NCBI GenBank assembly: GCA_964400145.1
Contig: CAYNTF010000002.1
Span: 65,164-129,163, forward strand
DNA length: 64,000 nt
Source of the DNA: an uncultured Lachnospiraceae bacterium
Lineage (GTDB): Bacteria > Bacillota > Clostridia > Christensenellales > UBA1242
Direction: 5' to 3'
In this document: positions 56,629 to 56,714 of the stretch, in pieces
Layout: every line of letters begins with the position of its first letter
Position numbering within the stretch: position 1 is the first letter of the stretch
Notes under the pieces: model-generated
What the model was told of the DNA's origin: nothing
The model's database searches: none
Seen by the model: the letters and a program-made list of their open reading frames with translations, nothing else
Program-made: the position numbers and the translations under genes

Positions 56629-56714
56629 GGGTTATGTGCCCGGCGGGCGAAAGTGAGCCGGAGCTCCTGCCGAGCAATAACGGAAGTTATTGCGAACGCC
56701 ACGAAGTATAACCC
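56629..56714 (+). ncRNA. Candidate structured RNA module, copy 2
   Basis: The closing helix pairs GGGTTAT (56629-35) with ATAACCC (56708-14). Hairpin A pairs CCGGC (56640-44) with GCCGG (56657-61) and has an inner C-GAAA-G. Hairpin B is GCAATAAC-GGAA-GTTATTGC (56674-93). Confidence 0.35.

What the first reader, a model, noticed from the sequence alone, without database searches (positions are those of the whole stretch)
56629..56714. GC-rich two-hairpin RNA module whose closing strand GGGTTATG exactly complements the initiator anticodon arm CATAACCC
The 87 nt between the terminator and the tRNA half is 48/87 G+C by my hand count. It sits in a genome whose spacers are otherwise nearly pure A/T, which is the usual signature of a structured RNA in an AT-rich genome. 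Three helices are visible. GGGTTAT (56629-35) pairs with ATAACCC (56708-14). CCGGC (56640-44) pairs with GCCGG (56657-61) and encloses C-GAAA-G. GCAATAAC-GGAA-GTTATTGC (56674-93) is an 8-bp stem with a GNRA loop. The result looks like an initiator anticodon arm (GGG/CCC kept) whose 7-nt loop has been replaced by a 72-nt insert. That arm is joined to an authentic variable loop, T arm, acceptor 3' strand and ACCA, but there is no D arm and no acceptor 5' strand. TGCGA at 56691-95 could pair weakly with TCGCA at 56741-45, though this competes with hairpin B. Inference only: the exposed AUG in GGGUUAUG could pair in trans with the anticodon loop of free tRNA-fMet, acting like a specifier or a decoy. 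Alternatively the module could be a processing or recombination site. I could not match it to hammerhead, twister, HDV-like, SRP, tmRNA or T-box cores.
Basis: partly seen in the sequence, partly recalled or inferred. Interest (0 to 1): 0.6.

Follow-up and report, generated by a model that had tools for sequence, protein, structure and literature searches.

The report
Initiator-tRNA gene insertion scar, tandemly repeated
The GC-rich hairpin module is real, but it is most likely part of a small 161-bp DNA insertion, present twice, left by recombination inside the initiator tRNA gene, and not a new RNA that senses or decoys initiator tRNA.

Summary
Coordinates, the three helices and the G+C contrast (58% against 22-25% in neighbouring spacers) all hold.

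The module is one segment of a 161-bp unit repeated 2.3 times. The repeat begins inside the intact tRNA-fMet gene, exactly between C34 and A35. Each unit holds a tRNA 3' half, its own terminator, a 20-nt inverted copy of tRNA positions 22-41 (the 'GGGTTATG' strand), a direct copy of positions 26-34, and a 41-nt insert.

- Four close relatives with the same gene order have the same tRNA-fMet and no module.
- One relative has a near-identical array. Two others have a tyrosine-integrase element plus displaced tRNA-fMet 3' fragments at this locus.
- One species is polymorphic for a 111-nt mini-unit.
- Both strands fold equally well, no promoter precedes the module, and Rfam, phage and plasmid searches find nothing.

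Best reading (0.55): an integrase-less mini-element or integration scar, amplified by unequal crossing-over.

The module is 93% identical between two genomes whose synonymous sites are saturated. A covarying C-GNA-G mini-hairpin next to ATAACCC recurs across Clostridia. So a functional DNA site or RNA is not excluded.

The parts
56311..56340 (+). Only strong promoter of the region (TTGACA-18-TATAAT, 12/12). It drives the tRNA-fMet gene.
56351..56427 (+). Complete initiator tRNA-Met(CAT) gene with encoded CCA. Its part from A35 (56386) onward is the first copy of the repeated 3' half.
56386..56751 (+). Tandem repeat, period 161 bp, 2.3 copies, one SNP (56430 G/A). Unit = tRNA 3' half + terminator + module.
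56432..56456 (+). Unit-borne intrinsic terminator, copy 1 (GGAGTCAGAC-AAAGC-GTCTGGCTTT + T run).
56468..56546 (+). Module copy 1, 100% identical to the reported copy.
56547..56590 (+). Second copy of the tRNA-fMet 3' half (A35 to ACCA plus AAA), 100% identical to the gene.
   Evidence: D2
56593..56617 (+). Unit-borne intrinsic terminator, copy 2.
56629..56648 (+). Start of module copy 2.
   Evidence: I3; read from sequence
56649..56666 (+). Loop GAAAGTGA, then a direct copy of tRNA positions ~26-34 (GCCGGaGCTC). It pairs with the inverted copy to make hairpin A.
   Evidence: read from sequence; folds
56667..56707 (+). 41-nt insert lying exactly between tRNA positions C34 and A35. It includes hairpin B (56674-56693, 8 bp, GGAA loop) and a terminal mini-hairpin ACGAAGT (56701-56707, C-GAA-G) that abuts ATAACCC.
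56708..56751 (+). Third copy of the tRNA 3' half. It is the terminal fragment and the only one followed by non-repeat sequence.
56756..56799 (+). AT-rich hairpin plus T run after the last 3' half. It is unlike the unit terminators and resembles the AT-rich terminators that follow the tRNA in relatives without the module, so it is probably the native terminator.
   Evidence: I8

Best explanation
The module is DNA of a small non-coding insertion in the initiator tRNA gene, not a gene for a regulatory RNA.

Proposed history: a site-specific (tyrosine-integrase-type) integration with its crossover in the anticodon loop, at or just 3' of C34|A35, brought in an element. That element carried its own copy of the tRNA 3' half and its own terminator, which now complete the working tRNA. 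The native 3' half and native terminator were pushed downstream. What remains of the element is 161 bp: the 3' half, the terminator, and a GC-rich fold-back arm next to the crossover.

The fold-back arm consists of an inverted copy of the anticodon arm, a direct copy of positions 26-34, and a 41-nt insert with two hairpins.

Unequal crossing-over between the 44-bp direct repeats, or a second integration, then doubled the unit.

Shown here: the repeat anatomy, the boundary at C34|A35, element-type versus native-type terminators, empty sites in relatives, an integrase-bearing element plus displaced 3' fragments at the same tRNA in other relatives, and a within-species presence/absence polymorphism of a similar mini-unit.

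Inferred: that an integrase supplied in trans made this particular insertion; that the fold-back arm is, or was, its attachment-site arm; and that the high conservation reflects recent transfer or selection on the recombination site.
For: - Repeat structure and its boundary inside the tRNA gene.
- The first two 3' halves are followed by identical GC-containing terminators. The last one is followed by a different, AT-rich hairpin.
- Relatives L094, L096, L097 and L100 have the same gene order and tRNA-fMet sequences differing from the window's at one base (for L094, L096 and L097). Each has its own AT-rich terminator and no module, no extra 3' half and no inverted arm.
- L098 and L099 carry two displaced tRNA-fMet 3' fragments at the same place, with boundaries at C32 and at A35. 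Each fragment has a terminator, and they lie directly beside a tyrosine integrase (PF00589) and an XRE repressor.
- L101 and L100 encode an identical GlnRS protein but differ by a 111-nt unit made of GGGTTAT plus a short hairpin, tRNA positions 47-76, and a second terminator.
- L020 holds a homologous array at the same locus. Its module is 93% identical, while four-fold degenerate sites of the neighbouring GlnRS gene are only 46% identical. The two organisms occur in the same samples.
- No promoter precedes the module.
- Both strands fold equally well.
- No Rfam family matches.
- Integration into tRNA genes is known to leave regenerated genes plus displaced fragments, sometimes in series (PMC4383910 abstract; PMC9897764; bioRxiv 10.1101/2020.12.28.424599).
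Against: - No integrase or other mobile-element gene was found among the 19 proteins scanned by Pfam: all 9 ORFs between 47 and 64 kb plus 10 chosen elsewhere. The simple ORF listings of the other module-bearing loci show none either.
- No intact parent element with this module was found in phage, plasmid, viral, metagenome or species-representative genome collections.
- 161 bp is far below any autonomous element.
- The one bona fide attachment arm seen here (L098) is AT-rich with direct repeats, not GC-rich hairpins.
- In L020 even the terminal 3' half carries the T-stem deletion. The simple model expects that copy to be the native one, so homogenisation would be needed.
- In L101 the first terminator, not the last, matches the terminator of the empty-site strain L100.
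- The 93% conservation could equally mean purifying selection on a functional RNA or DNA structure.
- Elements in other Clostridia duplicate the tRNA 5' half instead and lie inside the tRNA transcript.
Confidence: 0.55

Rival explanations
1. A structured non-coding RNA derived from tRNA-fMet. It would be made by read-through of the tRNA terminator. Its anti-anticodon strand (GGGUUAUG) and pseudo anticodon-arm strand would act on initiator tRNA or its precursor through pairing, decoy, processing or stability effects. This is.
For: - The module is a G+C island in AT-rich spacers with GNRA-type loops (GAAA, GGAA), and it folds better than shuffles.
- The module is 93% identical between two genomes with saturated synonymous sites. 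All five differences fall outside the three helices.
- In other Clostridia, related pieces (pseudo 5' half + insert + ATAACCC-N3-5-GGGTTATG) lie between the promoter and the real tRNA-fMet, so they are necessarily transcribed.
- Their ~120-nt insert has 10 predicted pairs with double-sided changes, including CCGCA/UGCGG versus CCGAA/UUUGG with a G-U pair.
- Leaders of tRNA-fMet in Mucilaginibacter and other Bacteroidota carry a hairpin with covarying stems and a conserved loop, GGUUAUGR, complementary to the anticodon loop.
Against: - No promoter is present and a terminator precedes every copy.
- GGGUUAUG is paired in cis in every fold.
- The reverse strand folds as well or better.
- All helices, and the family-wide mini-hairpin stems, are pure Watson-Crick with GNA triloops. 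From my own knowledge, GNA triloops are typical of stable DNA mini-hairpins rather than RNA motifs.
- The module is absent from four close relatives with the same tRNA.
- The T arm is destroyed in L020.
- No Rfam match was found.
Confidence: 0.2
2. A purely mutational scar with no mobile element. Replication template switching (fold-back) at the heavily transcribed tRNA gene would have produced a direct-inverted-direct duplication of tRNA pieces with filler DNA. Later unequal crossing-over would have changed copy number. The hairpins would then be by-products, kept paired by quasi-palindrome correction.
For: - The architecture is tRNA, then an inverted copy of positions 41-22, then a direct copy of positions 26-76.
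- The same fold-back junctions between inverted and direct tRNA pieces occur in L014, L005, L031 and L026.
- The L100/L101 indel is bounded by a 12-nt repeat, TTTTTT(T)ATTTC, and not by the tRNA.
- L005 has a 93-bp direct repeat flanking a ~530-bp segment.
Against: - It does not explain the 41-nt insert placed exactly at C34|A35 in several lineages.
- It does not explain why the unit terminators differ from the native one.
- It does not explain the 93% identity of the module between genomes with saturated neutral sites.
- It does not explain the shared U33-to-A variant of the inverted arm (GTGCC) in distant taxa: the window, L020 and Pumilibacter L006.
Confidence: 0.15
3. A hairpin-structured recombination substrate. 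The single strand would fold so that GGGTTAT/ATAACCC rebuilds the duplex of the tRNA-fMet anticodon region, stacked on a C-GNA-G mini-hairpin. It would be recombined as folded single-stranded DNA, in the manner of integron attC sites or the CTX-phage attP, producing cassette-like arrays beside tRNA-fMet.
For: - Every non-tRNA ATAACCC in 12 or more lineages is preceded within 0-5 nt by a C-GNA-G (occasionally GNNA) mini-hairpin. Its stem covaries (AC/GT, AAC/GTT, CAC/GTG, CGC/GCG, GCC/GGC, CTTTCC/GGAAAG) and it is partnered by GGGTTAT(G).
- The inserts differ completely between lineages while these ends stay the same.
- The units occur in arrays.
- DNA folding z-scores are -3.3 and -3.4.
Against: - No recombinase is linked to the arrays.
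- The R'/R'' consensus of attC is not met when read from the sequence.
- There is no cargo between the sites.
- All evidence is structural resemblance.
Confidence: 0.1

Closest known systems
Genomic islands and prophages integrated in tRNA genes by tyrosine integrases (regenerated tRNA plus displaced 3' fragment; Islander database, Williams 2002 sublocation classes)
   Same: An intact tRNA is followed, in direct orientation, by exact copies of its 3' part. The identity block starts in the anticodon loop and runs to the 3' end. The first copy has element-type downstream sequence and the last has native-type. Relatives show empty sites and an integrase-bearing element at the same tRNA (PMC4383910, PMC9897764).
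   Different: There is no integrase and no cargo, with only 117 bp between the repeats. The arm next to the crossover is a GC-rich fold-back holding an inverted copy of the tRNA's own anticodon arm, not an AT-rich arm with direct repeats.
Integrase-less remnants flanked by attachment sites and tandem accretion (CIMEs of Streptococcus ICEs, from my own knowledge; degenerate tycheposon remnants with serial partial tRNAs, bioRxiv 10.1101/2020.12.28.424599)
   Same: Non-autonomous units are bounded by partial tRNA repeats, arranged in series at one tRNA, and variable between strains.
   Different: Known CIMEs and remnants are kilobases long. Mobilisation in trans has not been shown here.
Folded single-strand recombination sites (integron attC; CTX-phage attP(+))
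   Same: An imperfect hairpin has conserved ends and a variable, even branched, middle. The folded strand mimics a duplex target, and the sites occur in arrays.
   Different: The attC consensus boxes are absent. No integron integrase or Xer dependence is known here. The resemblance is structural only.
T-box leader specifier / tRNA-sensing RNAs
   Same: The module contains a sequence (UUAUG) complementary to the tRNA-fMet anticodon.
   Different: No T-box sequence, Stem I platform or antiterminator is present and Rfam gives no hit. The complementary strand is paired in cis. The module sits behind a terminator and not in an mRNA leader.
Split or permuted tRNA genes (Nanoarchaeum-type halves with GC-rich complementary leaders)
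   Same: A tRNA 3' half is preceded by a GC-rich structured segment.
   Different: No separate 5' half with a complementary tail exists in the window. A complete tRNA-fMet gene stands next to it. Bacteria are not known to splice such halves.

Membership tests
tRNA-gene integration footprint (tyrosine-integrase element) | Intact tRNA plus a displaced fragment in direct orientation, identical from a canonical crossover sublocation (anticodon loop, T loop or 3' end) to the 3' end | tested here: met
   Three 44-nt copies, 100% identical, start at A35 of the anticodon.
tRNA-gene integration footprint (tyrosine-integrase element) | Integrase gene and element cargo between or beside the repeats | tested here: not met
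   Only a terminator and the 79-nt module lie between the repeats. No recombinase was found among the 19 window proteins scanned by Pfam, which include all 9 ORFs between 47 and 64 kb.
tRNA-gene integration footprint (tyrosine-integrase element) | Occupied versus empty sites among related genomes at the same tRNA | tested here: met
   L094, L096, L097 and L100 are empty. The window and L020 are occupied. L098/L099 are occupied by an integrase-bearing element. L100/L101 are polymorphic.
tRNA-gene integration footprint (tyrosine-integrase element) | Excision or integration activity (circular junction, attP x attB recombination) | not testable with these tools
   This needs PCR, long reads or a recombination assay.
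Known RNA families (Rfam 15: tRNA-like, tmRNA, T-box, hammerhead, twister, HDV-like, retron msr, and others) | Covariance-model match at the gathering score, or at least a suggestive E-value | tested here: not met
   Only the tRNA itself and partial T-arm hits (15 bits) were found, and nothing over the module at E <= 10. Nothing was found in 17 related loci.
Hammerhead ribozyme | Core CUGANGA - stem II - GAAA, and a cleavage-site nucleotide H (not G) 3' of stem III | tested here: not met
   The module has CUGCCGA - hairpin B - GAAC (A6 replaced by C). The nucleotide after GGGUUAU is G, and 11 extra nt precede the closing strand. This was read from the sequence. The motif is not kept in L006 or L082.
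Integron attC site | R''/R' boxes RYYYAAC ... GTTRRRY, L boxes with extrahelical bases, and a linked or trans integron integrase | tested here: not met
   GTATAAC and GTTATGT each miss the consensus when read from the sequence. No IntI is present in the window.
Split tRNA halves | A separately encoded 5' half whose tail is complementary to the leader of the 3' half | tested here: not met
   In the 1.5 kb around the array the only 5'-half sequence is the one in the complete gene, and ARAGORN finds no other initiator tRNA gene or fragment in the window. The rest of the genome was not available.
Small protein-coding gene | Open reading frame conserved in homologs | tested here: not met
   The 25-codon frame 56634-56711 (MCPAGESEPELL...) is broken by a +1 indel after codon 10 in L020.
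Type III toxin-antitoxin RNA repeats (ToxI-like) | Tandem RNA repeats directly upstream of a toxin endoribonuclease gene | tested here: not met
   The downstream gene is gyrB, which has its own conserved leader.

The most novel reading that the evidence does not exclude
The fold-back is not debris but the working part of an undescribed family of tiny, protein-less elements that live beside, or inside copies of, the initiator tRNA gene in Clostridia. The fold-back consists of an inverted anticodon arm, a covarying C-GNA-G mini-hairpin, and ATAACCC. It would be either a hairpin DNA substrate that homes to the tRNA-fMet anticodon loop at C34|A35, or a tRNA-fMet-derived RNA whose anti-anticodon strand acts on the initiator tRNA precursor. 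The second option would parallel the conserved GGUUAUGR leader hairpins seen in Bacteroidota.
Probability: 0.2. Interest if true: 0.8.

Novelty: new variant of a known kind. Interest (0 to 1): 0.4.

Why it matters
If the main reading holds, this is a clean, very small example of how tRNA genes collect integration scars. The working initiator tRNA now uses an imported 3' half and an imported terminator, and the scar can amplify in tandem. That matters for annotation, because tRNA fragments and GC-rich hairpins can be mistaken for RNA genes, and for mapping integration hot spots in gut and rumen Clostridia.

Two results are not ordinary. The module is 93% conserved against a saturated neutral background. 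And across many Clostridia, unrelated inserts all end in a covarying mini-hairpin placed against ATAACCC and paired with an inverted anticodon arm. Either result could point to a recombination mechanism, or an RNA, specific to the initiator tRNA that has not been described. The candidates and the assays to test this are now defined.

Tried and rejected
- **Rfam.** I ran it at gathering scores on the whole window, at E <= 10 on 56250-56850, and at gathering scores on 17 related loci. Only tRNAs matched, plus unrelated Gut-1 and purine riboswitch hits elsewhere.
- **Hammerhead-like core.** CUGCCGA-stem-GAA was rejected on A6, on H17 and on lack of conservation.
- **Small ORF in the module.** It is not conserved.
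- **Phage and plasmid similarity.** Only the tRNA matches. The module alone gives nothing.
- **Viral-contig pattern scans.** Five scans gave nothing or chance hits in coding DNA.
- **Integrase search.** A search of viral contigs with the L098 integrase found no relatives.
- **Metagenome scan for the insert core.** It returned mostly a chance match inside an unrelated soil gene, plus three real relatives.
- **Apparent enrichment in the genome scan.** I first read the 72 hits as enrichment. About 5x10^5 tRNA-fMet genes, each with a 31-nt window, would give roughly 240 chance GGGTTATG hits (my own estimate). So the raw count means nothing, and only the individually inspected loci count.
- **Exact-protein look-ups with my ORF calls.** These failed because the recorded start codons differ.
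- **RNAalifold on the Bacteroidota leaders.** It missed the hairpin because the 3' stem strands were misaligned. Single-sequence folds recover it.
- **Replication origin.** The DnaA-box scan is not enriched, so I make no claim that the module relates to an origin.
- **Last two contig look-ups.** They were uninformative.

Full report
**1. What is in the sequence**

The window region 56200-57100 contains one strong promoter (56311-56340, 12/12 consensus). It is followed by a complete initiator tRNA-Met(CAT) gene at 56351-56427 (ARAGORN; Rfam tRNA, 65 bits).

Tandem Repeats Finder reports a repeat of period 161 bp, 2.3 copies and 99% identity, from 56386 to 56751. The repeat finder confirms it. 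The repeat starts inside the tRNA gene, at A35 of the CAT anticodon. Each unit has three segments:
- The tRNA 3' half from A35 to ACCA plus AAA (44 nt). There are three copies and all are 100% identical.
- An intrinsic terminator (56432-56456 and 56593-56617).
- The 79-nt GC-rich module (56468-56546 and 56629-56707), identical in both copies. The whole unit differs at one base, 56430.

The third 3' half (56708-56751) is followed by different sequence: an AT-rich hairpin with a T run (56756-56799, I8).

**2. Check of the observation**

G+C is 50/86, against 22-25% in the two flanking spacers and 37% for the window. The module folds better than dinucleotide shuffles: z = -2.8 alone and -3.3 with the tRNA half.

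Three things change the picture:
- GGGTTATG is the beginning of a 20-nt inverted copy (18/20) of tRNA positions 22-41, that is, the D-stem 3' strand plus the entire anticodon arm (I2/I3).
- After an 8-nt loop comes a direct copy of positions ~26-34 (GCCGGaGCTC). Then comes a 41-nt insert, and then the tRNA resumes at A35. The insert therefore sits exactly at C34|A35.
- The reverse strand folds as well or better (RNA z = -3.6, DNA z = -3.4). The helices are ordinary Watson-Crick inverted repeats, and the folding statistics cannot distinguish an RNA from a DNA palindrome.

**3. Known families**

- Nothing but tRNA matches in Rfam, even at E <= 10.
- The junction CUGCCGA-hairpin-GAA resembles a hammerhead core but fails at A6 and at the cleavage nucleotide, and it is not conserved in relatives.
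- The 25-codon frame that runs from the ATG of GGGTTATG to the TAA of ATAACCC is broken in the homolog.
- The module has no match in 50,697 phage and 72,556 plasmid records.
- It has no match in IMG/VR.

**4. Homologs and related architectures**

A pattern scan of 185,579 species-representative genomes returned 72 loci. By my own estimate of the number of tRNA-fMet genes scanned, that count is below chance expectation, so I judged each locus by inspection.

- **L020 (a Lachnospiraceae MAG).** This is one true homolog. It has at least 2.5 tandem units of 166 bp with a module 93% identical. Its 3' halves have lost the T-stem 3' strand.
- **L066.** It has the same layout (tRNA-fMet, terminator, GGGTTATG, GC-rich hairpins, TATAACCC, 3' half) with an unrelated insert.
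- **Pumilibacter (L006, L060, L078, L083), L082 and L062.** They carry an insert homologous to the window's (GCCGAGC-hairpin-GCGAACGCCACGA...GT) at the same C34|A35 position. There it is attached to a copy of the tRNA 5' half, followed by ATAACCC-N4-GGGTTATG, and it lies upstream of the real tRNA.
- **Many other Clostridia MAGs.** They have a different ~120-nt insert in the same place. Its predicted helices show double-sided changes.

Across all of these, each ATAACCC that is not part of a real tRNA is preceded within 0-5 nt by a mini-hairpin of the form C-GNA-G. Its stem covaries, and it is partnered by an inverted GGGTTAT(G). I have not seen this family-level regularity described. From my own knowledge, GNA triloops closed by C-G are typical of very stable DNA mini-hairpins.

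**5. The decisive comparison**

The window's GlnRS and neighbouring membrane protein let me fetch the same locus from relatives. The gene order YchF - mini-RNase III - SpoU - sigma - GlnRS - membrane protein - tRNA-fMet - (Fic) - gyrB - gyrA is conserved.

| Relatives | State of the tRNA-fMet locus |
|---|---|
| L094, L096, L097, L100 | tRNA-fMet sequences differing from the window's at one base where compared (L094, L096, L097), each with its own AT-rich terminator. No module, no extra 3' half, no inverted arm. |
| L098, L099 | Two displaced tRNA-fMet 3' fragments (boundaries at C32 and A35), each with a terminator, directly beside a tyrosine integrase and an XRE repressor. |
| L100 versus L101 (identical GlnRS protein) | They differ by a 111-nt unit: GGGTTAT + short hairpin + tRNA 47-76 + second terminator. 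|

This tRNA-fMet is therefore a demonstrable integration and rearrangement hot spot. The window's array is an insertion relative to the ancestral state.

The window and L020 are each other's closest relatives (GlnRS 90% identical). Even so, four-fold degenerate sites are only 46% identical, which is essentially saturated, while the module is 93% identical and the unit terminator about 75% by my estimate from the alignment. The two organisms occur in the same samples, and short-read contigs of both break at the repeat. So the module is either recently transferred or under selection. It is not old neutral debris.

**6. Best explanation and rivals**

I favour a miniature, integrase-less integrative-element remnant inserted at the anticodon-loop crossover and doubled by unequal crossing-over or re-integration (confidence 0.55). 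This matches the known behaviour of tRNA-targeting elements (PMC4383910; PMC9897764; bioRxiv 10.1101/2020.12.28.424599).

Points against it:
- No integrase and no parent element were found.
- The arm is GC-rich and hairpin-rich, unlike the AT-rich arm of the L098 element.
- Two details do not fit the simplest model: the deletion in L020's terminal copy, and the identity of L101's first terminator with the terminator of L100.

Rivals:
- A read-through structured RNA acting on initiator tRNA (0.2).
- A pure template-switch or duplication scar (0.15).
- A folded single-strand recombination site (0.1).

**7. Verdict**

The RNA specifier/decoy interpretation is not supported.

The object is a new, unusually small and structured variant of a known kind of feature. 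Interest is moderate. It would be raised by the unexplained conservation and by the recurring hairpin-plus-inverted-anticodon-arm motif beside initiator tRNA genes in Clostridia.

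Noticed in passing
L002, L004, L016, L017, L019, L024, L064 and other Mucilaginibacter loci; L033, L054 (Bacteroidota MAGs); about 25-50 nt upstream of tRNA-fMet: The 5' leader of the initiator tRNA carries a hairpin whose stem covaries (CUUUCCG/CGGAAGG, UCCGG/CCGGA, UUUUUCG/CGAAAAA, GUCGG/CCGAC). Its 8-10-nt loop keeps GGUUAUGR, which is complementary to the anticodon loop UCAUAACC of the tRNA just downstream. A single ancestral chance occurrence cannot be excluded, but the loop stays constant while the stems change.
   Followed up: partly
L007 1084-1256, L010 1756-1926, L014 2311-2482, L039, L045, L048, L057, L001, L028: In many Clostridia MAGs the operon reads promoter - tRNA-Leu - pseudo tRNA-fMet 5' half - ~120-nt insert - ATAACCC-GGA-GGGTTATGA - real tRNA-fMet. 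RNAalifold predicts 10 pairs in the insert with double-sided changes. There is no Rfam match.
   Followed up: partly
L014 2670-2985: Downstream of the real tRNA-fMet lies a 5'-truncated pseudo-tRNA with two homologous ~120-nt inserts, one in the anticodon loop and one in the T arm. It is preceded by an inverted copy of positions 41-22.
   Followed up: no
L005 3400-4000 (minus strand): A ~530-bp segment is flanked by a 93-bp direct repeat (terminator plus inverted anticodon arm). It contains a run of short hairpins separated by AGCTAAAT/ATTTAGCT motifs that look like iterons.
   Followed up: no
L062 4583-4660: A fourth copy of the pseudo anticodon arm with the 24-nt insert (…GGGCTC-TTACGAAGCACGAGCGAAGCGAGT-ATAACCCGAAAG) runs straight into AGGAGG and the ATG of a 248-aa ORF. 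From its N-terminal sequence alone it looks to me like a SAM-dependent methyltransferase; this was not checked with any tool. The copy therefore forms that ORF's 5' UTR.
   Followed up: no
window 56940-57005; also L094 8900-8955, L096 7650-7705, L097 10110-10165: The AT-only sequence just upstream of gyrB (TATATATGATATAATATAGTATATATTATATATATAAAGGG) is nearly invariant across relatives whose other intergenic DNA has diverged completely. It is probably a conserved gyrB promoter or leader, and supercoiling-sensitive control is a possibility.
   Followed up: no
window 56827-56888: There are three copies of CTGTTTCTT(A/G) in direct orientation between the native tRNA terminator and the gyrB promoter region.
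   Followed up: no
window 56228-56239 and 56752-56763: A 12-nt direct repeat, TTTAAAAAATCG / TTAAAAAAATCG, brackets the whole promoter-tRNA-array block. In L020, L098 and L099 the tRNA-fMet pieces lie on the opposite strand relative to the membrane-protein gene. The repeat is low-complexity, so it may be chance.
   Followed up: no
window about 47058-47288 and 47288-49840: Gene orientation switches from mostly minus (up to SecA, 44362-47058) to plus here. Cumulative GC skew reaches its minimum at about 50-56 kb. DnaA boxes are not enriched. The 850-aa ORF at 47288-49840 has no Pfam match.
   Followed up: partly
L001 1595-1665 and 1839-1913: Two Gut-1 RNA (RF01706) matches lie about 1.5 kb upstream of the tRNA-Leu / pseudo-tRNA / tRNA-fMet operon in a roe-deer caecum Clostridia MAG.
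   Followed up: no
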